Assembly: GCA_038858525.1 (NCBI GenBank)
Contig: JAWCFL010000033.1
Span: forward strand, 1 to 17,537
From: Candidatus Jordarchaeales archaeon
GTDB taxonomy: Archaea > Asgardarchaeota > Jordiarchaeia > Jordiarchaeales > Freyrarchaeaceae
DNA length: 17,537 nt
Reading direction: 5' to 3'
Below the pieces are notes generated by a model. That model ran no database searches, was not told the origin of the DNA, and saw only the letters and a list, made by a program, of their open reading frames with translations. Positions within the stretch are counted from its first letter, which is position 1. Each line of letters begins with the position of its first letter. Positions 1,026 through 15,074 of this stretch are shown in pieces. The translations under genes and the position numbers were made by a program.

Positions 1026-1515
1026 GTTTCAAGCCCTTATAGGTATTCTTGCAACGAACAGTGAGAAAGATGAAAGGTGTGTCGTTAAGCGGTTTCAAGC
1101 CCTTATAGGTATTCTTGCAACTCACTGAGGTGACAGGGGTTTCTAAAGAAAACTGGAGTTTCAAGCCCTTATAGGTATTCTTGCAACCTCCCATCATGGG
1201 AGGAAGTGATACGAATATATGAAGTTTCAAGCCCTTATAGGTATTCTTGCAACAAAGCTAGGCTCATCGCTCCAAAAAAACACTTACCTGTTTCAAGCCC
1301 TTATAGGTATTCTTGCAACATGAAGGATACCGCCGCCTTCTTCCTTTCGTTTCGCGTTTCAAGCCCTTATAGGTATTCTTGCAACCGGCGGGCGAGAAGC
1401 GAAGACGCATCAAACCCATATGTTTCAAGCCCCTATAGGTATTCTTGCAACTCCCCAAAAACCCCTCCCCCCGACGCCCAAGAAGGTTTCAAACCATTAT
1501 AGGTATTCTTGCAAC
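1026..1515 (-). CRISPR. CRISPR array A: 8 repeats of 30 bp, 7 spacers (36,36,36,36,36,36,34 bp)
   Basis: Repeat GTTTCAAGCCCTTATAGGTATTCTTGCAAC starts at 1026, 1092, 1158, 1224, 1290, 1356, 1422 (T12C) and 1486 (G8A, C11A). The reverse complement GTTGCAAGAATACCTATAAGGGCTTGAAAC ends in the canonical ...TTGAAAC 3' handle, hence the minus-strand call (inferred). Confidence 0.98.
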
Positions 1516-1542: not shown

Positions 1543-1802
1543 CTTTCAATCCCCATGTTTGGGGACTATTTTTGCTTGTCCTTTTTGGGGGTTGTTGACG
1601 TGGGGAGGGGTGTGTTGTCTTTCAATCCCCATGTTTGGGGACTATTTTTGCTTGGTAACTCAACGACGTCAGCAAGTCTCATAAGATCGTACTTTCAATC
1701 CCCATGTTTGGGGACTATTTTTGTTAGCGTTTAACCGCGCAGCTGATGCCCATGCTGGGCGGCATCCTTTCAATCCCCATGCTTGGGGACTTTTTTTGTT
1801 AG
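1543..1802 (-). CRISPR. CRISPR array B: 4 repeats of 36 bp, 3 spacers (40,37,39 bp)
   Basis: Core CTTTCAATCCCCATGTTTGGGGACTATTTTTG + CTTG/CTTG/TTAG/TTAG starts at 1543, 1619, 1692 and 1767 (last has T16C, A26T). Internal stem TCCCCA-TGTT-TGGGGA. The reverse complement ends ...GGGG-ATTGAAAG, with the canonical 8-nt handle at the base of the hairpin. Confidence 0.93.
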
Positions 1803-2190
1803 GGTTTGTGTTTTTGTTTGTTTTTGTTTGTTTTTAAGTTTTTTTGTTTGTGTTTTGTGTGTTTTGCGGAGCGTTGTGTTTTTGGTGTTGGGTTTATATG
1901 GGTGTTCCGTTTTTGTTTGGGATGTTTTTTGTTTTTATTTTGTTTTTTGATGAGTTTTGTGGTTTTTCTTGGTGTTTTCAGTGTTGGGTAGATTGTTTTT
2001 TTGTTTTTACGTTAATTTTTATGTTGTTTTTTCATTTTTTCATTTTTTCTTTATTTTTTTGTTATTTTTGTTTGTTTTTTGCCTGTTTCTTCTTTTTTCT
2101 TTGTTTTTTCGTTTTCTTGTTTTTTTGGTTTCGCCGTTTCTTGCTTCGAGGGAGGGTGATGTTTCGTCTGGATATTTATGTTTTTCTGTT
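1803..2190. other. T/G low-complexity non-coding tract; probable leader/promoter region of the arrays (minus strand)
   Basis: About 390 bp of almost only T and G between the last B repeat and the promoter of the cas1 operon, on the side predicted to be leader from repeat polarity. ORFs across it are F/V/L/C compositional artefacts. Confidence 0.5.
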
Positions 2191-2205
2191 TTTGAAGTAT
2201 ATTTC

Positions 2206-2220
2206 CGAAAAGTATATATA
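2206..2220 (+). promoter_or_regulatory. BRE-TATA promoter of the DUF2797-cas1-cas2-cas4 operon
   Basis: CGAAAAG-TATATATA at 2206-2220; GAGGGG RBS at 2250-2255 and ATG at 2264 follow. Direct repeat AAGTATAT at 2195-2202 and 2210-2217. Confidence 0.6.
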
Positions 2221-2263
2221 TTGCGGATTTGATCTTTCTCGTGGTGGTTGAGGGGTGTTTGTT

Positions 2264-3163
2264 ATGATTAGGCGTGGTAGTTTGGTTGGGTCTGTTGGTG
2301 TTTGTGGTTTTGGGGATGTTGGTGATTGTTTTGTTGTGGTTGGGGGTTTTAGTTGGCGTCCTTTTCTTGATTTCTGGTTGCCTTTTGTTGATACTGTTTC
2401 GCTTGTTGATGGTGGGGTTGAGTGGGGTGGTTTTCCCGTTTTTGGTGAGCATTTTTTTGTTTTTGGTGGGGGGAGGCGTTGTGTGGGTTGTTTGGGTTCT
2501 GGTGTTGTTGATGGTGTTGGTCTTTGTGGGGGTTGTGCTTCTTCGGTTTGGGGGGCTAGGTGGATGTGTAGTGTTAGGGGTGCTGGTGTTCCTTTTGGTT
2601 CTTCGTCTTGTAGTTTGGATGATCCTGCGTGTGGGTTGAGGGGTGCTGCTGCTAGGTGTGGGGGTGAGCATTATGTTTACCTTGCGGGGTTTGGTTGGGT
2701 TTTGAAGGTTGGTGTTGTTGCCGCTGATAGGCGGGATGGTTTTGTTGCTCGCTTGTTGGAGCAGGGGGCTGATTGGGCTGCGGTTTTTTCTGGTGGGTTT
2801 ACGCTTCCTGAGGCTCAGCTTGTTGAGGGGGAGGTTTCTAGGGTTTTTGGTGTTGCCGACAGGGTTGGGCTTGATGAGAAGGTGGAGGTTTTCCGTTCGG
2901 GTGTTGTGTGTGACTGGGGTGGGGTTGCGGGGGAGGTTGCGGATTATTTTGGGCTTAGGCTTGTTGGTCGTTACGATTTTTCTGGTGTTTATGGTGCTTG
3001 TCCGGGGTTTGAGGTTGCTGGTGTTGTGCGTGGGCCGAGGGTGTTTGGGGGGAGGCTTGTCTACGCTAGGGGTAACGTTGCCTTCTTTGATGTGGGTGAG
3101 TGTGGTGTTTATGTTTTGGATTTATCGTCGCTTCGGGGTTTGCCGTTGCTGTGTGAGGTCTAG
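2264..3163 (+). CDS. DUF2797-like protein: Cys-rich putative Zn-binding region plus a GIY-YIG-like motif block
   Basis: RRCVGC...LCGGC...C...C...C followed by HYVYLA-x6-KVG...RLLEQGA, matching the pattern I recall for DUF2797 (PHxVYLA...KVG...RWIDQGA). ATG 2264 preferred over GTG 2255 on RBS spacing. The stop at 3163 is 3 bp from the cas1 start. Confidence 0.7.
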   Translation: MIRRGSLVGSVGVCGFGDVGDCFVVVGGFSWRPFLDFWLPFVDTVSLVDGGVEWGGFPVFGEHFFVFGGGRRCVGCLGSGVVDGVGLCGGCASSVWGARWMCSVRGAGVPFGSSSCSLDDPACGLRGAAARCGGEHYVYLAGFGWVLKVGVVAADRRDGFVARLLEQGADWAAVFSGGFTLPEAQLVEGEVSRVFGVADRVGLDEKVEVFRSGVVCDWGGVAGEVADYFGLRLVGRYDFSGVYGACPGFEVAGVVRGPRVFGGRLVYARGNVAFFDVGECGVYVLDLSSLRGLPLLCEV

Positions 3164-3166
3164 GGG

Positions 3167-4201
3167 GTGCCGGGTTTGATTCTTGAGGTTTCGACTCATG
3201 GGTGTAGGGTTGGGCGTAGGGGTAGGCTGGTTAGGGTTACGCTTAATGGTGAGGTTTTGAGTGAGGTCCCCGTCTCTAAGCTTAGTGAGGTTATTGTTTC
3301 GGGTAGAGTTTCGTTTTCGAGCGAGGCTGTTCAGCTTTTGGCTGAGAATGGTGTTCCTGTCCTTTTCATGTGTGGTTGGAGGCCTGTTGCTTTGCTTCAC
3401 GGGTTCTTTATGCATGGGACTGTTTTGACTAGGAGGGAGCAGATGGCTGCTTACGACGATGAAAGGGGTGTTCATTTGGCTAAGGGGTTTGTTAGGGGTG
3501 GGCTTGTGAATAAGGCTCAGCTTCTCCGCTACTTTGCGGCTAGTAGGGGTAGGAGTGATGGGGAGCTTGCTGGTGCTCTTGAGGCTGCCGCCTCAGAGAT
3601 TTTCGGGGTTGCTTGTGAGGTTGAGAGGGTTGAGGGTGGGAGTGTTGACGATGTGAGGTTTGAGGTTATGGGTTTGGAGGCTGAGGGGACTAGGGTTTAC
3701 TATGAGGCTTTGCGCCTGCTGCTCCCGGAGGGGGTTGGGTTTGAGAGGCGTGAGAGGAGGCCTCCTAGGGACCCTGTGAATGCCGCTTTGAGTTATGGCT
3801 ACACTATGCTTAACGGGAGGTGCCTGTCGGCTATCGCTGCCTGTGGCCTTGAGCCTTACGCCGGCTTTCTTCACGCTGACAGGTCTGGTAAGCCATCATT
3901 GATGCTTGACCTTTCGGAGGAGTTTAGGCAGCCCGCCGTTGATAGGGCTGTGGTTTCACTTTTCTCTAAGGGAGCTCTTGGAAGGGAGGATTTCGGCTTT
4001 GAGGAGGGCAGGGTTGTCCTTGGGGGGAAAGGTAAGGAGGTGCTGCTGAGGGCTTTGAACGAGAGGTTTAGGGGGGAGGTGAGGGTTGACGGGGGCTCTG
4101 CTCCCCTGGAGAACGTTATTTTCAGGCAGGCTAGGATGATAGCGCGCTACCTTCTGGGTAAGGCTCCGAAGTATGAGCCCTACGTTTTCACTTGGCATTA
4201 G
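3167..4201 (+). CDS. cas1: CRISPR-associated integrase Cas1
   Basis: GLEAEG...YY, RRERRPPRDPVNAALSYGY, GFLHADRSGKPSLMLDLSEEFRQ (catalytic E/H/E); 344 aa. Confidence 0.97.
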   Translation: MPGLILEVSTHGCRVGRRGRLVRVTLNGEVLSEVPVSKLSEVIVSGRVSFSSEAVQLLAENGVPVLFMCGWRPVALLHGFFMHGTVLTRREQMAAYDDERGVHLAKGFVRGGLVNKAQLLRYFAASRGRSDGELAGALEAAASEIFGVACEVERVEGGSVDDVRFEVMGLEAEGTRVYYEALRLLLPEGVGFERRERRPPRDPVNAALSYGYTMLNGRCLSAIAACGLEPYAGFLHADRSGKPSLMLDLSEEFRQPAVDRAVVSLFSKGALGREDFGFEEGRVVLGGKGKEVLLRALNERFRGEVRVDGGSAPLENVIFRQARMIARYLLGKAPKYEPYVFTWH

Positions 4202-4209
4202 GGGGGTTT

Positions 4210-4491
4210 GTGGTGTTCGTGGTTGTCTATGATATTACGGATGACAGGTTGAGGGAGCGTGTGGCTTTGACCTTGATGGAGTACGGGTTCATCAGGATGC
4301 AGAAGAGCGTCTTCGTTGGTGATGTTAGTAGGAATGTGGCTGAGATGCTGGCTATAGAGCTCAGGAGGCTGGTTGAGGGGAACCCTTGCGATGTGAGGAT
4401 TATCCCTGTTTGCATGAGGTGCTATGAGGACGTTATCATCGTTGCGAGGCTGGTGGAGGCGGCTGAGGCCGAGGAGGTGGTGGTGACTTGA
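4210..4491 (+). CDS. cas2: CRISPR-associated protein Cas2
   Basis: VVYDITDDRLRERVA...YGF.RMQKSVF.G; about 93 aa. GTG 4210 after a G-rich RBS is preferred to the track's TTG 4192. Confidence 0.95.
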   Translation: MVFVVVYDITDDRLRERVALTLMEYGFIRMQKSVFVGDVSRNVAEMLAIELRRLVEGNPCDVRIIPVCMRCYEDVIIVARLVEAAEAEEVVVT

Positions 4492-5039
4492 GCGTGTTCT
4501 TCACCGCTGAGGACGTGAGGCAGTACGCTTACTGCAAAAGGAAGGTCTATTTCAGGTATGTTTTGAGGGCTAGGGTTAAGCCGACGGTTAAGATGGAGCG
4601 TGGGAGGGAGGAGCACTTGAAGCTTGAGTCCAGAAGGAAGAGGAGTGGCGGGGCGTACTTCAGCATGTATCTCTTCTCAGAGAGGCTTGGGCTTGCGGGC
4701 GTAGTGGACTATCTCAAGTATGAGGGGGGTGAGGTTATCCCTGTCGAGGTTAAGTTTGGGAGGTGGGAGAGGGTATATTCAGGGCACTACCTTCAGCTTG
4801 CGGCGCACGCCCTCCTGTTGGAGGAGCACTTCGGATTGGATGTGGTGCGGGGGGTTATAGAGTATCCTGACGGAGAAGTGGTGAGGGAAGTGAAGATAAC
4901 TGAGAAAGTTAAGCTTAAGGTTATTGAGGTGTTGTCGAGGATCAGGAGAATTGTCCTTGAGGAGGAGGTGCCGCCGCCATCGCTGAACGCTTCGAAGTGT
5001 GAGGGGTGTGAAGCGTATAGGGTCTGTAGGGGGTGCTAG
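4488..5039 (+). CDS. cas4: CRISPR-associated nuclease Cas4
   Basis: QYAYCKRK, GREEH, GVVD...PVEVK (PD-(D/E)xK), QLAAHALLLE and C-terminal CxxCxxxxxC Fe-S ligands; TTGA overlap with the cas2 stop. Confidence 0.95.
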   Translation: MSVFFTAEDVRQYAYCKRKVYFRYVLRARVKPTVKMERGREEHLKLESRRKRSGGAYFSMYLFSERLGLAGVVDYLKYEGGEVIPVEVKFGRWERVYSGHYLQLAAHALLLEEHFGLDVVRGVIEYPDGEVVREVKITEKVKLKVIEVLSRIRRIVLEEEVPPPSLNASKCEGCEAYRVCRGC

Positions 5040-5106: not shown

Positions 5107-5146
5107 ATAAAATCTGGAAATTTGATGTGTGGTGAGGTGGGGTTTT

Positions 5147-5500
5147 ATGGGTTCGCATGTCTCTCAGGAGCTTATTAAGGCTGTTAAGGACGACGCTGTG
5201 AAGCGTGTAGCTGAGTTATTCCATTATTTGGTTGTTCATTGTGAGGTTAAGCAGTATTATTACGAGTTGAAGTTTGTGCGTAGTGGGTCAAGGCTTCTTG
5301 AACTTATCGGGAAAGCTCTCAAGGACCTGGGTGTGATTGGAAGAGATGAGGAGCGTAGGAGGGAGATCGAGGAACTGCGTCTTCCTAGTAAGGAGGATGA
5401 GTCTATGGTTTTGGAGTATTACAGTTCGTTGGGGCTGGATTTTATCAGGGCTCTATCGGGGATGGTTGTTGCTAGTTGTCGGCTTTGCTATAAAGCATAG
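5147..5500 (+). CDS. csa5: Type I-A Cascade small subunit Csa5 (Cas11)
   Basis: About 117 aa helical protein directly upstream of cas7, with a Csa5-like LPSKED motif; the position matches the csa5-cas7-cas5-cas3'-cas3''-cas8a2 order of archaeal I-A loci. Confidence 0.75.
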   Translation: MGSHVSQELIKAVKDDAVKRVAELFHYLVVHCEVKQYYYELKFVRSGSRLLELIGKALKDLGVIGRDEERRREIEELRLPSKEDESMVLEYYSSLGLDFIRALSGMVVASCRLCYKA

Positions 5501-9347: not shown

Positions 9348-10169
9348 ATGACAAGATGGAGATGCGAGATGGAAAATTGCCCGTTAAGGGGGGTTAGTAA
9401 AGTTTGCGGCGACGGAAAGGATGGACCAGTAGTAGTGTCCTATCATCCCAGCAATGGAAACAAAGAATGCTACGTTAGGCATTCGGTTCTATGCTGGGAA
9501 GAGTGGAAACGTGTGTTTGACAGATATATACGCTCCATTCACCGGGTTTTCAGGAAAACATTATTTATAAATGTGGACTTGAAAGTTATAGAAAATATTT
9601 GTGGAGTTGCGGTTCTCCATCATGACGTTGGAAAGTTGTGCGCAGATTACCAGTCTGCCAGATTTTATAGGCACGAGATGATAAGCTCGTTCCTAATTCA
9701 TGATTACGTTGTTGGGATGCTGAAAAATAGCTCCCTAGACGAGGAAAAGGCGGAGCTCCTTTCTTCAATAGTCTCGGCGGCGGTATACCTTCACCATGAA
9801 GGGCTCCAGATAAGTCATGAGTACTATGAGATGAGGGCGCCTACATATGGCTATCTGCTAAACCTGTTGGCGGGGAGAGAGTTCCGCATGGTCGAGTCTT
9901 GGATGCTGATATCTTCGGAGCTTGAAAAGTACGCCTTCGGCAGGACGCTTGGTTACTTCGCGAATGTAAGCTCGGTCAGCGGTTATGAGGTAACTAACGT
10001 GTTGGGCTCCGTCATAACGCTTGTGGATGGAGCCCCGGACCCGCTCCCGCTCCGCCTCGCCGTGGCTTCCATCCTTCACCCGATAACGATAACAGATAAC
10101 CTTGCATCGCAGAAGAGGGGAGGAAAACCAAGCTTGTTAAGCTCGTTTTTGGGGGTTACGGAGAGATGA
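9348..10169 (+). CDS. cas3'': Cas3'' HD nuclease (split Cas3)
   Basis: RHS...LHHDVGK...RHEMIS...LHHEGL HD-domain motifs. Start likely ATG 9348 or 9369 rather than the track's 9210, which overlaps cas3' by 134 bp. Confidence 0.9.
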   Translation: MTRWRCEMENCPLRGVSKVCGDGKDGPVVVSYHPSNGNKECYVRHSVLCWEEWKRVFDRYIRSIHRVFRKTLFINVDLKVIENICGVAVLHHDVGKLCADYQSARFYRHEMISSFLIHDYVVGMLKNSSLDEEKAELLSSIVSAAVYLHHEGLQISHEYYEMRAPTYGYLLNLLAGREFRMVESWMLISSELEKYAFGRTLGYFANVSSVSGYEVTNVLGSVITLVDGAPDPLPLRLAVASILHPITITDNLASQKRGGKPSLLSSFLGVTER

Positions 10170-11344
10170 GTAACGTTGTGAGTATTCCATCAACGAGAGA
10201 CCGAGTTCTTGATACGCTGCTCGTGTACGCGATCATGGACATTGGGTTAGAAGTGGACCCAGACATAAGGTTCAGGGTGACACTGGGACAAGAAAACTTC
10301 ATTACCGTGAATTATAGTAATTCGAACTTAGAAAGGGATATGCTTTCCAAACTGAAAGATAAGTCGAAAAGGTTCTCTATAGCTGACAGGATGAATTTCT
10401 TTTTGAACATGGGAAACACCTCTTGGAAAGTTGACAAGTGGGTGTGCACTTACTGCACCGGGAAAAATGATTGTAACCGTAATGGGGATTGCGGGAAAAC
10501 AAATATTTTGGCTTATGCCGTGCTTCACGGTTACATCAAATCTATGGGAAGTTTTTCTCTTCCGTGGAGTCCCAAATCCATAACGAAAGCAGGATCAAGG
10601 GGGAGGAGGTGTGCTACGCTGAGTGTTGGTGTTTCGCCGTACTGGTCGAAGGGGATAAGAAGGTGGGACATGGGGGAATGGAGGGAGGACTCGACCACCG
10701 TTGAGCATTCAGTTCTGCCATTTGCACTTTACGGATTAGGCAATTACACCATAAATGTGGTGACTGGGAACATGTTGATTCGGTTGATGTTTTCCCCACC
10801 TGTCGGTAGGGAGCTTTCTCATTTAGAAGCCATAAAGCTTCTAACGCTTGTGAGGCGAGTGGTCAACTCCATTTACATCGAAATGCAGAGATTTTTCCGA
10901 TTAGAGTTTCCTTCAATGGTCCTTCCGCTTTCCATGCTGTGCTTTCTAGATGTTCCAGCTATTTACATGTTGCATCAATTTTCTCCATCGATCCTCCTAA
11001 TTAGTTATGACTTATATAGGAATTCTCCGAAGAATCCACGCGGCTATGAAGAGTTGAGTTTGGCAGACGCATTGGAGTTTTACAGGCAGATAGGCGAATC
11101 ATTCTGGGACTTTAAAAAGATGATAATTGACCTGGTCAGCTTGGCGGAGAGGGAGGAATATAGGTCTCGGGTTTTTGATATACTTATAAAGTTGGCTTTA
11201 GGAATTAAGAACAAGGAGCCATCTTACTTTAACGATGCGCTTCTTAACATTCAATCGTTAAGGAAAGAAGTTAATGTTAAGTTTTTCGTTATAGGAAGAG
11301 AGGAGATGCTAGCTGCTCATAGGGCCCTAAGGACCTCTCATTGA
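10166..11344 (+). CDS. cas8a2: Type I-A large subunit Cas8a2 (Csa4-like)
   Basis: 392 aa, ATGA-coupled to cas3''; N-terminal P..D..LDTLLVY and SPYWSKG resemble Csa4-type motifs. The call rests mainly on operon position and size. Confidence 0.72.
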   Translation: MSNVVSIPSTRDRVLDTLLVYAIMDIGLEVDPDIRFRVTLGQENFITVNYSNSNLERDMLSKLKDKSKRFSIADRMNFFLNMGNTSWKVDKWVCTYCTGKNDCNRNGDCGKTNILAYAVLHGYIKSMGSFSLPWSPKSITKAGSRGRRCATLSVGVSPYWSKGIRRWDMGEWREDSTTVEHSVLPFALYGLGNYTINVVTGNMLIRLMFSPPVGRELSHLEAIKLLTLVRRVVNSIYIEMQRFFRLEFPSMVLPLSMLCFLDVPAIYMLHQFSPSILLISYDLYRNSPKNPRGYEELSLADALEFYRQIGESFWDFKKMIIDLVSLAEREEYRSRVFDILIKLALGIKNKEPSYFNDALLNIQSLRKEVNVKFFVIGREEMLAAHRALRTSH

Positions 11345-13047: not shown

Positions 13048-13586
13048 TTTAATAAATTTCCCATGATACTATTGTTGGGATGATAGATCATGTGAGAGGT
13101 GACGGGAAGCTGGTTAAAGGGTCGCTTGTTAAATGGGCAGAGATGCTTAAGAGGAAGTAGGGAAAGTTGATGAGTAAAACGATCTATAAGCATGGTTTCG
13201 CTCATTCTTATCAATATTCTGCGAGGATTTGGTGTCGATTTATTAGTTCTCCGATGATTTCTGTTTTTTGGATTTGTTGAAGATAAATTCGGACGCTATA
13301 AAGGGAAAAGTAGAGTTAAAGTGTTCTTAATTACCCTTTTTTAGTTTAGTTGTAGTGGAATGATAAAGGTTTCAAGTCGGAGATGAAAAAGAAAAAGGCG
13401 GCGTGATTTTTGTGGTTGAAATGCTTTTATTGATGAACTTTTATACAGTTAAGATGGTGAAATGTCTATAGTGGTGTTTGATGTTTTATTTCGGAGGGAC
13501 GGCTGCCTTTATGTGGAGTTGTGGTTGTTCTGTGTGGTTTGGGTTTTTGTTGCTGTTGCGAATGTTCTGTTTTGTGGGAGGTGTTT

Positions 13587-15074
13587 GTGTTGGATGTTTG
13601 GGTTGCTTCTGTTAGTGTTTCTTCTCCTGCGGTGTTTAATGGTTTGTGGTTTGTTGCTGAGCGGTATGGTTTTGTTCCTGATCGTGTTTACCTGCTTTGG
13701 AATGAGAGTGTTGTTGGTCAGCTTGAGGCGGTTAGGAGGGCTATAGGGTTTTTGGGGGAGACTTATGGTAGGAGGGTTGAGGTTGTTGCTGATGAGAGTG
13801 TTAGGGTGTATGAGGAGGATATTGATGGCTTCAGGAGGAAGGTTGGCGAGCTTTTGAAGTCTCTTGGTGGTGTGGGGAGGGTTGTGGTTGATATTACTCC
13901 TGGGCGGAAGTTCATGTCTTCTTTGATGCTTGCCGCTGGGATGGAGCATGCTGACCACGTGGTTTACCTTTTTCTTAGGGATTTGGGCTACGCTGACAGT
14001 TACCTGTTTCACATACCGTTTTCGCTTCAGAAGCTGGTTGATTTGAGGGCGCTGTTTAAGGGGGGCGCTCCTCTTTCGGGTGAGCGGGTGAAGGGTGAGC
14101 GGGTGACGGTGAAGGTTTGTAGGAGGGATCTTATGGTTTTTTTGAACTCACTTTATCTTGACGGGCGGCTTGTTCATGATGTTAGGTTAGGGGGGGTCAA
14201 GTTGGGGAGGTTTACCCTTAAGCTTGAGGGGAATGAGGTGTCCTTCAACGTTGAGTGTAATGATTTTTGCGACGAGACTCATGGGGATTTTTCGTTGGTG
14301 AGGGAGGTTATCTTAGCGTCGGGCATGGCTCGCTTCTCAAACGAGGAGGAAGCGTTTGGAGAGGTGCTAAACGAGATTAAGCGCAGCAGTAGGACTGTTT
14401 ACGTTGGCTTCGACACCAACTCCCTTGTTTTTAGGGTGCCATCGAGGTTTCTGGAATACGTGAGAAGGGCGTATGCTGGAATGAGGGAGAGGGAGCCAAG
14501 CATTAACTTTGTTATCTCTGGAGAGGTGATTAACGAGGTTTCACGTAACGTGAACCAGAAGTTGCCCGTCGACCCTAAACTTGGAGACTACTCGAACCAG
14601 CTGACACCCAGGGCTAGGCTTTTCATGGTGGCGCAGGGTGAGAGACGATTGCTGGATGATCGCAACTCGGAGGTTGTTGAGGCAGGAGGCGACGCTAGGG
14701 GAGATGAAAAGATAGCCTTGGAGTACAAGGAGTTCGCCTCCAAGAAGGGAAATGTGGTGGTGTTCACTACGGACAGTGCGGCCTACATGGCCATGGATAG
14801 CTTCAGAAGGCAGGGATTGATACCCGTCAAGCTTAATCTCCCAAGTATGCAGGGCCCATTCAGGGGGAGGTGGGAGGACGCGAGAGACTTGCTATATTAC
14901 CTGTCGGTTGTTCTTGGAGAGATCAATGTTTCTCCTTATAGGTTTAGGGGTGTGTGGAGGGGTAAGAGCCCGGATGACTGGAGGCGTGAGCTGGTGGAGC
15001 TTTCCAACTTCGAGTATTCCCGTATCCTGGAGTTGTCTAGCAAGTTGCTGGCTGAGAAGGGAAGCCGTGGCTGA
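13587..15074 (+). CDS. CARF-PIN fusion protein (putative cyclic-oligoadenylate-responsive ribonuclease)
   Basis: N-terminal CARF: WVASVSVSSPAVFN...PDRVYLL and DITPGRKFMS (13890-13919). C-terminal PIN: VGFDTNSL (D at 14412), NEV, GDEKI, TTDS acidic tetrad. RBS GGAGGTG at 13577-13583 points to a start at GTG 13587 or TTG 13590 (~495 aa). Confidence 0.85.
   Translation: MLDVWVASVSVSSPAVFNGLWFVAERYGFVPDRVYLLWNESVVGQLEAVRRAIGFLGETYGRRVEVVADESVRVYEEDIDGFRRKVGELLKSLGGVGRVVVDITPGRKFMSSLMLAAGMEHADHVVYLFLRDLGYADSYLFHIPFSLQKLVDLRALFKGGAPLSGERVKGERVTVKVCRRDLMVFLNSLYLDGRLVHDVRLGGVKLGRFTLKLEGNEVSFNVECNDFCDETHGDFSLVREVILASGMARFSNEEEAFGEVLNEIKRSSRTVYVGFDTNSLVFRVPSRFLEYVRRAYAGMREREPSINFVISGEVINEVSRNVNQKLPVDPKLGDYSNQLTPRARLFMVAQGERRLLDDRNSEVVEAGGDARGDEKIALEYKEFASKKGNVVVFTTDSAAYMAMDSFRRQGLIPVKLNLPSMQGPFRGRWEDARDLLYYLSVVLGEINVSPYRFRGVWRGKSPDDWRRELVELSNFEYSRILELSSKLLAEKGSRG

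What the first reader, a model, noticed from the sequence alone, without database searches (positions are those of the whole stretch)
2264..3163. DUF2797-like Zn/GIY-YIG-like protein heads the adaptation operon, in the slot where csa1 normally precedes cas1
Seen: first gene after the BRE-TATA, 3 bp from cas1, in a tightly coupled DUF2797-cas1-cas2-cas4 run. It has paired CxxC motifs and HYVYLA-x6-KVG...R..EQG. Established: Sulfolobales I-A adaptation cassettes read csa1-cas1-cas2-cas4, with Csa1 a Cas4-like nuclease; GIY-YIG nucleases use a Y-x-Y...K-x-G...R...E core. I know of no described CRISPR role for DUF2797. Inference: a candidate new adaptation accessory nuclease supplying or trimming prespacers in place of Csa1.
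Basis: partly seen in the sequence, partly recalled or inferred. Interest (0 to 1): 0.75.

Follow-up and report, generated by a model that had tools for sequence, protein, structure and literature searches.

The report
Cas1-linked DUF2797 gene in Asgard archaea
The first gene of this hot-spring Asgard archaeon's CRISPR spacer-uptake operon belongs to a separate branch of the uncharacterised DUF2797 family (zinc ribbon plus a GIY-YIG-like nuclease core) that sits directly in front of cas1-cas2-cas4 in dozens of Asgard genomes, in the slot that the nuclease Csa1 holds in other loci, so it is a strong candidate for an unrecognised CRISPR adaptation protein.

Summary
Window 2264-3163 encodes a 299-aa protein, 3 nt before cas1, that heads a tightly packed X-cas1-cas2-cas4 run. 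A type I-A effector set lies downstream, and two CRISPR arrays and a leader lie upstream.

The protein is a divergent DUF2797. It scores 22.6 bits on Pfam, under the 25-bit cut-off, but 56 of 65 homologues match the family, and its confident model fits DUF2797 models (TM 0.70/0.72).

The central domain's best solved-structure matches are GIY-YIG nucleases. The scores are weak (Z 3.6-4.9) but consistent. The second catalytic Tyr is a Lys.

In 400 Asgard genomes, about 40 of about 135 full cas1 genes have this gene directly upstream. On a tree, every cas-linked copy lies on one side of a supported branch. The other side holds a non-CRISPR clade that sits after a radical SAM gene. Five unlabelled sequences placed on the cas side all proved cas1-linked.

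Eight other Asgard cassettes carry true Csa1 in the same slot. None carries both.

The link to adaptation is well supported. Nuclease activity and the exact role are inferred. A Loki-like sub-branch keeps the linkage but has lost the putative catalytic residues.

I found no description in the literature I could reach. This scan has already noted the family on other genomes.

The parts
1026..1515 (-). CRISPR array A: 8 repeats of 30 nt, period 66
   Evidence: On the minus strand the repeat ends ...CTTGAAAC, so the array is read leftwards.
1543..1807 (-). CRISPR array B: 4 hairpin repeats, period about 75, next to the leader
   Evidence: On the minus strand the repeat ends ...ATTGAAAG.
1808..2205 (.). 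T-rich intergenic region. Probable leader of the arrays and divergent promoter region of the cas operon.
   Evidence: This assignment is an inference.
2206..2222 (+). BRE/TATA-like element (CGAAAAG TATATATATT), 42 nt before the ATG
   Evidence: Read directly. Not tested.
2264..3163 (+). Cas1-linked DUF2797-clade gene (P0001, 299 aa)
2333..2464 (+). N-terminal beta strands (res 24-67). With res 251-298 they form a small beta-barrel.
   Evidence: AF2 model. Weak SH3/Tudor/KOW/BAH-like matches (Z about 3-4).
2480..2536 (+). Zn ribbon C73-x2-C76 ... C88-x2-C91. All four Cys are invariant in the family.
2567..2659 (+). Second Cys cluster C102, C116, C123, C132 (probable second metal site)
2663..2983 (+). 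GIY-YIG-like core (res 134-240) with Y139, K148-x-G150, R163, Q167, E188, K206 invariant in the short cas-linked clade
3014..3157 (+). C-terminal beta strands (res 251-298) with conserved G263, G270, G292
3167..4201 (+). cas1
   Evidence: Pfam PF01867, 257.6 bits
4192..4491 (+). cas2
   Evidence: Pfam PF09827
4488..5039 (+). cas4
   Evidence: Pfam PF01930
5129..12386 (+). Type I-A-like effector and processing genes: small ORF (csa5 position), cas7/csa2, cas5a, cas3', cas3'' HD, 392-aa ORF (cas8a position), cas6

Best explanation
P0001 belongs to a separate, cas1-linked clade of the DUF2797 family, here called DUF2797c. It is the first cistron of a four-gene adaptation cassette, DUF2797c-cas1-cas2-cas4. 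The cassette is transcribed from a promoter that diverges from the CRISPR leader.

The protein has four parts: a small beta-barrel made of its N- and C-terminal strands, a C4 zinc ribbon, a second Cys cluster, and a central beta-beta-alpha-beta-alpha domain of GIY-YIG type with invariant Y139, K148, G150, R163, Q167, E188 and K206.

Most likely mechanism (inferred). It works with Cas1-Cas2 and Cas4 during spacer acquisition as a metal-dependent, structure-specific DNA endonuclease. It would cut or trim prespacer DNA, most plausibly the end that Cas4 does not process. This is the job that a second Cas4-family nuclease (Csa1, or Cas4-2) does in other archaeal systems.

Shown here: family, fold class, conserved residues, purifying selection, strict conserved operon position, co-inheritance with Cas1, and mutual exclusion with Csa1 in the same slot.

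Inferred: metal binding, DNA cleavage, which substrate, and physical contact with Cas1-Cas2-Cas4.
For: Linkage. In the 30 best Asgard loci, cas1(-cas2-cas4) follows on the same strand at -12 to +135 nt in 29 (28 at -12 to +65 nt, and L025/G324 at +135 behind an in-frame TAG). In L014 an over-extended cas1 ORF call reads -172, while HMM coordinates give about +35. The 30th, L027, runs off its contig. About 40 of about 135 full-length cas1 genes in 400 Asgard genomes have the gene upstream. 35 homologues in other contexts have no cas gene within 5 kb.

Tree. 36 non-cas copies plus 14 distant DUF2797 representatives form one branch (SH-aLRT 95), and all 44 cas-linked copies lie outside it. Five representatives of unknown context fell on the cas side, and all were then found next to cas1-cas2.

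Co-inheritance. The rank correlation of DUF2797c and Cas1 pairwise distances is 0.745, reached by 0 of 2000 permutations. The two trees share the same major groups.

Slot. Eight Asgard cassettes read csa1-cas1-cas2-cas4 with PF06023 at 243-260 bits. None has both genes. One genome of the window's own genus carries one cassette of each kind.

Cassette, not effector. The four-gene unit is constant while the neighbouring effector genes vary in content and orientation.

Fold. The AF2 model has pLDDT 91.8 and the domain model 94.4. VIA-align against 48,161 chains puts HIGLE, Slx1 (twice), I-TevI and UvrC GIY-YIG domains in ranks 1-5 for the domain (Z 4.8-3.6), and 6 of the top 8 for the whole model. 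Foldseek's best rows for the domain are UvrC GIY-YIG (E 0.43). hhalign puts E188 on the invariant GIY-YIG Glu, at probability 17.7 % only. A preprint reports the same cryptic fold in DUF2797.

Selection. dN/dS is 0.15-0.21. Y139, K148, G150, R163, Q167, E188 and K206 are kept in 33-34 of 34 short cas-linked copies.
Against: No biochemical data exist for any DUF2797.

The structural similarity to GIY-YIG is weak in absolute terms (Z under 5, Foldseek E above 0.1). No sequence method links the two families.

The canonical second Tyr is a Lys, and no counterpart of the GIY-YIG Asn was identified.

The same invariant residues occur in the non-CRISPR clade that sits after a radical SAM gene. The chemistry may therefore not be DNA cleavage at all.

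In 11 genomes of one Asgard family (f20), a longer form (430-566 aa; one of the 11 is cut to 223 aa by the contig end) keeps the position before cas1-cas2-cas4. It has lost the Tyr, Gly, Arg, Gln and mostly the Glu. At least there, the CRISPR role cannot depend on that site.

Cas4 is still present in every cassette, so no nuclease is obviously missing.
Confidence: 0.5

Rival explanations
1. Non-catalytic adaptation factor. DUF2797c binds DNA (prespacer, leader or repeat) or the Cas1-Cas2-Cas4 complex through its Zn ribbon and beta-barrel. It acts as an assembly, positioning or ruler subunit. The GIY-YIG-like core serves only as a binding module.
For: The f20 branch keeps the Zn ribbon, the Cys cluster, the C-terminal strands and the cas1 linkage, but loses the putative catalytic residues. 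The gene lies next to the leader in the window and in at least four other lineages. Cas4 is always present as a nuclease.
Against: In the short clade, which includes this protein, Y139, K148, R163, Q167, E188 and K206 are invariant over sequences that are otherwise about 27 % identical. That is the pattern of an active site. The f20 form may be a secondary loss.
Confidence: 0.22
2. An enzyme with a different chemistry. The DUF2797 core carries out the family's unknown housekeeping reaction, for example on RNA, a nucleotide or a modified base, as the radical SAM neighbour of the non-cas clade suggests. The cas-linked clade applies that reaction to CRISPR adaptation or its control.
For: The cas and non-cas clades share an identical conserved residue set. 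The non-cas clade follows a radical SAM gene in 23 of 36 loci. One relative is fused to an AAA_33 P-loop kinase. The GIY-YIG match is weak.
Against: The only coherent structural signal is to DNA endonucleases. The strict cistron order with an integrase and a DNA nuclease points to a DNA substrate.
Confidence: 0.15
3. A regulator of cas expression, or a passenger with no role in CRISPR, such as a selfish GIY-YIG homing-type gene lodged upstream of cas1.
For: It is the first gene after the promoter. GIY-YIG domains occur in mobile homing endonucleases (established knowledge).
Against: There is no HTH or other regulator domain. The gene is co-inherited with Cas1 over deep divergence, always in the same position and orientation. 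It is under purifying selection. No intein, intron or insertion signature was seen, and the genome holds a single copy.
Confidence: 0.06

Closest known systems
Csa1 (PF06023), the Cas4-family PD-(D/E)XK nuclease that heads csa1-cas1-cas2-cas4 cassettes
   Same: Same position, orientation and size class (about 300 aa) as the first gene of a cas1-cas2-cas4 cassette. In Asgard genomes the two are alternatives in that slot. Both are predicted metal/Cys-containing nucleases.
   Different: There is no sequence or fold relationship. P0001 has no PF06023 or PD-(D/E)XK match, while Asgard Csa1 scores about 250 bits. DUF2797c has a Zn ribbon plus a GIY-YIG-like core. Cas1 proteins linked to Csa1 form a separate clade from those linked to DUF2797c.
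DUF2797 (PF10977), an uncharacterised family of bacteria and archaea
   Same: Homologous over the full length. 56 of 65 relatives match the Pfam model. Whole-model TM is 0.70/0.72 to a DUF2797 cluster. The Zn ribbon and the Y...K-x-G...R...Q-G...E...K residues are the same.
   Different: This protein scores under Pfam's cut-off (22.6 against 25 bits). It belongs to a clade found only next to cas1, while the other members sit in non-CRISPR contexts.
GIY-YIG nuclease superfamily (UvrC N-domain, Slx1, I-TevI, HIGLE)
   Same: The central domain has the beta-beta-alpha-beta-alpha order. Its best solved-structure matches are these enzymes. A Tyr on strand 1, a Gly on strand 2, an Arg on helix 1 and a Glu on helix 2 are invariant. 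E188 aligns to the invariant Glu.
   Different: Scores are weak (Z 3.6-4.9). There is no sequence-level match. The second Tyr is replaced by Lys148, and no Asn counterpart was found. The domain is embedded between a Zn ribbon and a split beta-barrel.
Second Cas4 paralogue of two-Cas4 systems (Cas4-2 of Pyrococcus furiosus; from my own knowledge of the literature, not checked here)
   Same: A second nuclease encoded in addition to Cas4 that helps define prespacer ends. This is the functional model proposed here.
   Different: It is a PD-(D/E)XK enzyme, often encoded away from cas1. DUF2797c is unrelated to it and always adjacent to cas1.

Membership tests
DUF2797 (PF10977) | Match to the Pfam model at or above its gathering score (25 bits) | tested here: not met
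   22.6 bits, E 1.1e-4, residues 128-203 only. However, 56 of 65 homologues match at E <= 1e-3, best 1.4e-20.
DUF2797 (PF10977) | Full-length homology and fold shared with family members | tested here: met
   A profile of its relatives reaches 293 clusters, which include Pfam-positive DUF2797. The ESM Atlas shape search returns only DUF2797 clusters, TM 0.70/0.72 over 250 residues.
DUF2797 (PF10977) | Zn ribbon (two CxxC) and the conserved Y, K-x-G, R, Q-G, E, K residues | tested here: met
   C73, C76, C88, C91, Y139, K148, G150, R163, Q167, G168, E188 and K206 are conserved in the cas-linked, non-cas and distant members.
GIY-YIG nuclease superfamily | Three-stranded sheet with flanking helices (beta-beta-alpha-beta-alpha core) | tested here: inconclusive
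   GIY-YIG domains fill ranks 1-5 of 48,161 chains for the domain model, but at Z 3.6-4.8. Foldseek's top rows are UvrC at E 0.43.
GIY-YIG nuclease superfamily | Tyr of the GIY motif on strand 1 | tested here: inconclusive
   Y139 is invariant and lies on strand 136-143. No residue-level superposition was available.
GIY-YIG nuclease superfamily | Tyr of the YIG motif on strand 2 | tested here: not met
   The position is K148 (K-V-G) in nearly all family members. From memory, T5orf172-type members carry K-I-G; this was not tested. The T5orf172 model finds nothing in these genomes.
GIY-YIG nuclease superfamily | Catalytic Arg on helix 1 and metal-binding Glu on helix 2 | tested here: inconclusive
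   R163 (helix 159-166) and E188 (helix 181-195) are invariant. hhalign places E188 on the invariant Glu, but at probability 17.7 %.
GIY-YIG nuclease superfamily | Metal-dependent nuclease activity | not testable with these tools
   Needs an enzyme assay.
Csa1 / Cas4 family (PF06023, PF01930) | PD-(D/E)XK core with a C-terminal Cys cluster; match to the family models | tested here: not met
   P0001 has no match. Asgard Csa1 proteins in the same slot score 243-260 bits.
Recognised Cas or defence protein families | Match to any NCBIfam or PADLOC model | tested here: not met
   No hit in NCBIfam or PADLOC-DB.

The most novel reading that the evidence does not exclude
DUF2797c is a true new Cas protein family: a GIY-YIG-type endonuclease subunit of the Asgard Cas1-Cas2-Cas4 adaptation machinery. 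It took over the role of Csa1 by processing the non-PAM end of prespacers or by generating prespacers. It would be the first GIY-YIG nuclease with a dedicated role in CRISPR adaptation, and would give DUF2797 its first function.
Probability: 0.35. Interest if true: 0.8.

Novelty: new variant of a known kind. Interest (0 to 1): 0.7.

Why it matters
How prespacers are made and trimmed is one of the less settled steps of CRISPR immunity, and the known helpers (Cas4, Csa1, RecBCD, DnaQ-type exonucleases) differ between lineages. A conserved, cas1-coupled gene of an uncharacterised family, present in roughly a third of Asgard adaptation cassettes as an alternative to Csa1, points to a further solution built on a different nuclease fold.

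It would also give DUF2797 its first functional handle, and the hypothesis is directly testable. This window is a good exemplar: arrays, leader, an intact gene, the full adaptation cassette and a type I-A effector set all lie on one contig.

Tried and rejected
(1) Complex prediction of Cas1 with P0001, each given as an alignment. No verdict (score 0.01, controls not run). This is no evidence either way.

(2) Foldseek against the PDB with the whole model found nothing at E <= 0.001.

(3) Sequence-level links to GIY-YIG. Pfam at E up to 10 and a profile search against PDB sequences showed none. hhalign against an Asgard GIY-YIG alignment gave only a 32-column match at 17.7 % probability.

(4) T5orf172 comparison. 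Only one match in 301 Asgard genomes, so no alignment could be built.

(5) The search for related loci with alignments A2 and A3 failed because no stretch was conserved enough. The distribution outside Asgard therefore rests on the names of a few clusters only.

(6) Fused forms. None were found among longer proteins, which is weak evidence because the candidate list was saturated.

(7) The ESM Atlas feature search gave no usable hit.

(8) No RNA holder was listed among public runs, so expression could not be examined.

(9) The 2020 CRISPR Journal survey of Asgard CRISPR-Cas systems (PMC7307682) is not held in the library. I could not check whether it mentions this gene.

(10) A chance ORF on a G+T-rich strand was considered and rejected, on conservation, dN/dS and model confidence.

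(11) Score alone as the separator of cas and non-cas copies was rejected. Some cas-linked copies score as low as the non-cas ones. The tree separates them.

Full report
THE OBSERVATION

Window 2264-3163 (+) is an intact ORF of 299 codons. It ends 3 nt before the GTG of cas1 (3167-4201). cas1 overlaps cas2 (4192-4491), and cas2 overlaps cas4 (4488-5039). All three are confirmed by Pfam.

Downstream lie cas7/csa2, cas5a, cas3', an HD cas3'', two unassigned ORFs in the csa5 and cas8a positions, and cas6. This is a type I-A-like locus.

Upstream lie two CRISPR arrays with different repeats, at 1026-1515 and 1543-1807. On the minus strand their repeats end in ...CTTGAAAC and ...ATTGAAAG. The arrays are therefore read leftwards, and the T-rich stretch 1808-2200 is the probable leader, diverging from the cas promoter. 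A CGAAAAG-TATATATATT element lies 42 nt before the ATG. It was read by eye, not tested.

The CxxC pairs are C73/C76 and C88/C91.

The window is a whole 17.5-kb contig of a 2.09-Mb, 92.7 % complete genome. The nearest protein is named Candidatus Jordarchaeales. The DNA occurs in hot-spring metagenomes. The organism is therefore an Asgard archaeon, not a member of the Sulfolobales.

IS THE GENE REAL?

Yes. Relatives at 82-88 % identity give dN/dS of 0.15-0.21. An exhaustive profile search finds 293 clusters at E <= 1e-3 and 67 at E <= 1e-10. AlphaFold2 with 65 homologues gives pLDDT 91.8 and pTM 0.87. The odd G/V/F-rich composition follows the strong G+T bias of this strand.

WHAT FAMILY?

Pfam gives DUF2797 at 22.6 bits, under the 25-bit cut-off. 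However, 56 of 65 homologues match the model. A shape search of the ESM Atlas returns only DUF2797 clusters, with TM 0.70/0.72 over 250 residues. The protein is a divergent DUF2797. NCBIfam and PADLOC have no model for it.

STRUCTURE

Strands 24-67 and 251-298 pack into a small barrel. Next come a C4 Zn ribbon and a second cluster of four Cys. Residues 134-240 form a beta-beta-alpha-beta-alpha domain.

Foldseek finds nothing significant. An exhaustive alignment against 48,161 PDB representatives puts six GIY-YIG nucleases among the top eight: HIGLE Z 4.9, Slx1 4.7 and 4.4, I-TevI 4.0, UvrC 3.9, PD-T4-3 3.6. All align to residues 127-240.

The domain folded alone (pLDDT 94.4) gives the same five families in ranks 1-5. 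Foldseek's best rows for it are UvrC GIY-YIG domains (E 0.43).

These scores are weak taken singly. The agreement of two aligners on one small superfamily is the evidence.

Sequence methods do not link the families. hhalign against an Asgard GIY-YIG alignment gives only 17.7 % probability, although it places E188 on the invariant Glu. An October 2026 preprint independently reports a cryptic GIY-YIG-like fold in DUF2797.

I read this as a GIY-YIG-like core, probably homologous, with Lys in place of the second Tyr. Membership is not proven.

IS THE CAS1 LINKAGE GENERAL?

A profile search of 400 Asgard genomes finds the family in 161, and Cas1 in 96.

In the 30 best loci, cas1 follows on the same strand in 29. 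In 28 of them the called gap is -12 to +65 nt. L025/G324, whose copy carries an in-frame TAG, reads +135. In L014 an over-extended cas1 ORF call reads -172, while HMM coordinates give about +35. cas2 and cas4 lie behind cas1. The 30th locus runs off its contig.

Comparing coordinates, about 40 of about 135 full-length cas1 genes have the gene directly upstream. By contrast, 35 copies fetched with 5-kb flanks, plus one contig-limited copy (L070), have no cas gene nearby.

These non-cas copies occur in nearly every genome of some Asgard families. In 23 of 36 loci they sit immediately after a radical SAM gene.

A maximum-likelihood tree puts the 36 non-cas copies, with 14 distant DUF2797 representatives, on one side of a branch with SH-aLRT 95. 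All 44 cas-linked copies lie on the other side.

Five representatives of unknown context fell on the cas side (P0113, P0134, P0091, P0046, P0069). I then looked them up. Every one lies before cas1-cas2.

In a larger FastTree, 61 of 130 representative clusters fall on the cas side. The named ones are Jord/Freyarchaeia, Njord-, Odin-, Thor- and Heimdallarchaeia. One MAG is labelled Methanobacteriota.

The window's own genome has only the cas-linked copy.

MODULE BEHAVIOUR

DUF2797c and its Cas1 have been inherited together. Their pairwise distances correlate (rho 0.745, reached by 0 of 2000 permutations), and the two trees share their major groups. Related genomes share history, so this shows co-inheritance, not contact.

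The four-gene cassette is constant, while the adjacent effector genes differ in content and orientation. An array lies directly upstream in 5 of 19 loci examined.

THE CSA1 SLOT

Asgard adaptation modules come in three layouts:
- cas4-cas1-cas2. Its Cas1 proteins form a supported clade.
- csa1-cas1-cas2-cas4, in 8 loci, with PF06023 at 243-260 bits.
- DUF2797c-cas1-cas2-cas4.

No locus has both Csa1 and DUF2797c. A genome of the window's own genus carries one cassette of each kind.

MECHANISM

The link to adaptation rests on position, orientation, translational coupling, clade structure and co-inheritance. I consider it well supported, at roughly 0.8.

The residues Y139, K148, G150, R163, Q167, E188 and K206 are kept in 33-34 of 34 short cas-linked sequences, which otherwise share about 27 % identity. 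That is the signature of an active site.

Together with the fold, this makes a metal-dependent endonuclease acting on prespacer DNA the best single reading. By analogy with two-Cas4 systems (my own knowledge, not checked here), the substrate would most plausibly be the end that Cas4 does not trim.

Three observations temper this:
- The same residues are conserved in the non-CRISPR clade. The chemistry predates the recruitment and need not be DNA cleavage.
- In 11 genomes of family f20, a longer form (430-566 aa; one of the 11 is cut to 223 aa by the contig end) keeps the place before cas1-cas2-cas4, the Zn ribbon, the Cys cluster and the C-terminal motif. It has Gly for Y139 and Ile for G150, and variable residues at R163, Q167 and E188. 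There the role cannot depend on that site.
- Cas4 is always present.

I therefore put about 0.5 on the nuclease-in-prespacer-processing reading. About 0.2 goes to a non-catalytic adaptor. The rest goes to other chemistry, regulation or a passenger gene.

NOVELTY

Searches of the held literature for DUF2797, PF10977, GIY-YIG with cas1 or adaptation, and the CRISPR-linked gene survey gave no description of a CRISPR role. The 2020 survey of Asgard CRISPR-Cas systems could not be read, so prior mention there cannot be excluded.

This scan has already noted the same family on at least eight other genomes, with follow-up reports that reached similar conclusions. I re-derived the linkage, the clade and the fold independently here.

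I also add four points:
- the blind tree-placement test (5 of 5);
- the Csa1 alternation within one genus;
- the radical-SAM context of the non-cas clade;
- the loss of the putative catalytic residues in the f20 branch.

I rate it a new variant of a known kind: a known adaptation cassette with a new, unrecognised component.

Noticed in passing
L092, L095, L103, L105, L106, L111, L119-L122, L124 (Asgard family f20): A longer DUF2797-like gene stands directly before cas1-cas2-cas4 (430-566 aa; the L121 copy is cut to 223 aa by the contig end). It keeps the Zn ribbon, the Cys cluster and the C-terminal motif. It has lost the equivalents of Y139, G150 and R163; the Q167 and E188 positions are variable. 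It looks like a catalytically degenerate sub-branch that keeps the cas linkage.
   Followed up: partly
window 1026-1515 and 1543-1807: Two adjacent CRISPR arrays with different repeats (30-nt unstructured and about 36-nt hairpin), 27 nt apart. Both are read on the minus strand away from the T-rich region 1808-2200. Only one cas6 is in the window.
   Followed up: partly
window 13521-15074: A CARF-PIN protein (PADLOC CARF_PIN model, 473 bits) lies beside a type I-A locus with no cas10 on this contig.
   Followed up: partly
L116 (G000:C50:5351-11246), same genome: A second adaptation locus has two tandem Cas1-like ORFs (one scoring much lower) followed by cas2, and a divergent cas4.
   Followed up: no
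L072, L073, L134/L135 (Asgard family f10 and a metagenome contig): Variant cassette: a divergent Cas1 on the opposite strand upstream of the DUF2797c gene, and downstream a Cas1-sized ORF that in L134 has no Pfam hit, then cas2 and cas4.
   Followed up: partly
L114 (G114:C2) and L014/L143 (G114:C4), same genus as the window: One genome carries both a csa1-cas1-cas2-cas4 cassette and a DUF2797c-cas1-cas2-cas4 cassette.
   Followed up: yes
L034-L068 (non-cas DUF2797 loci): The non-CRISPR DUF2797 clade lies immediately after a radical SAM gene on the same strand (median gap -5 nt) in 23 of 36 loci. A second radical SAM gene, a Roadblock/LC7 gene and a transglutaminase-like gene lie nearby.
   Followed up: partly
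P0107 (448 aa, representative library): An AAA_33 P-loop kinase domain is fused N-terminally to a DUF2797 domain.
   Followed up: no
L153/L154 (cluster P0091, MAG labelled Methanobacteriota/Euryarchaeota): A DUF2797c-cas1-cas2 cassette lies next to a Cas5d-type effector gene in a MAG not labelled Asgard. Either the clade reaches beyond Asgard or the label is coarse.
   Followed up: no
G324:C113:3874-4707 (L025): The cas-linked DUF2797 copy of this genome contains one in-frame TAG.
   Followed up: no
window 5129-5500 and 10166-11344: ORFs of 123 and 392 aa in the csa5 and cas8a positions have no match in Pfam, NCBIfam or PADLOC. Homologues occur in the sister genome's locus.
   Followed up: partly
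window 2001-3000: Extreme strand composition (GC skew +0.55, AT skew -0.68) gives a protein that is 19 % Gly and 17 % Val.
   Followed up: no
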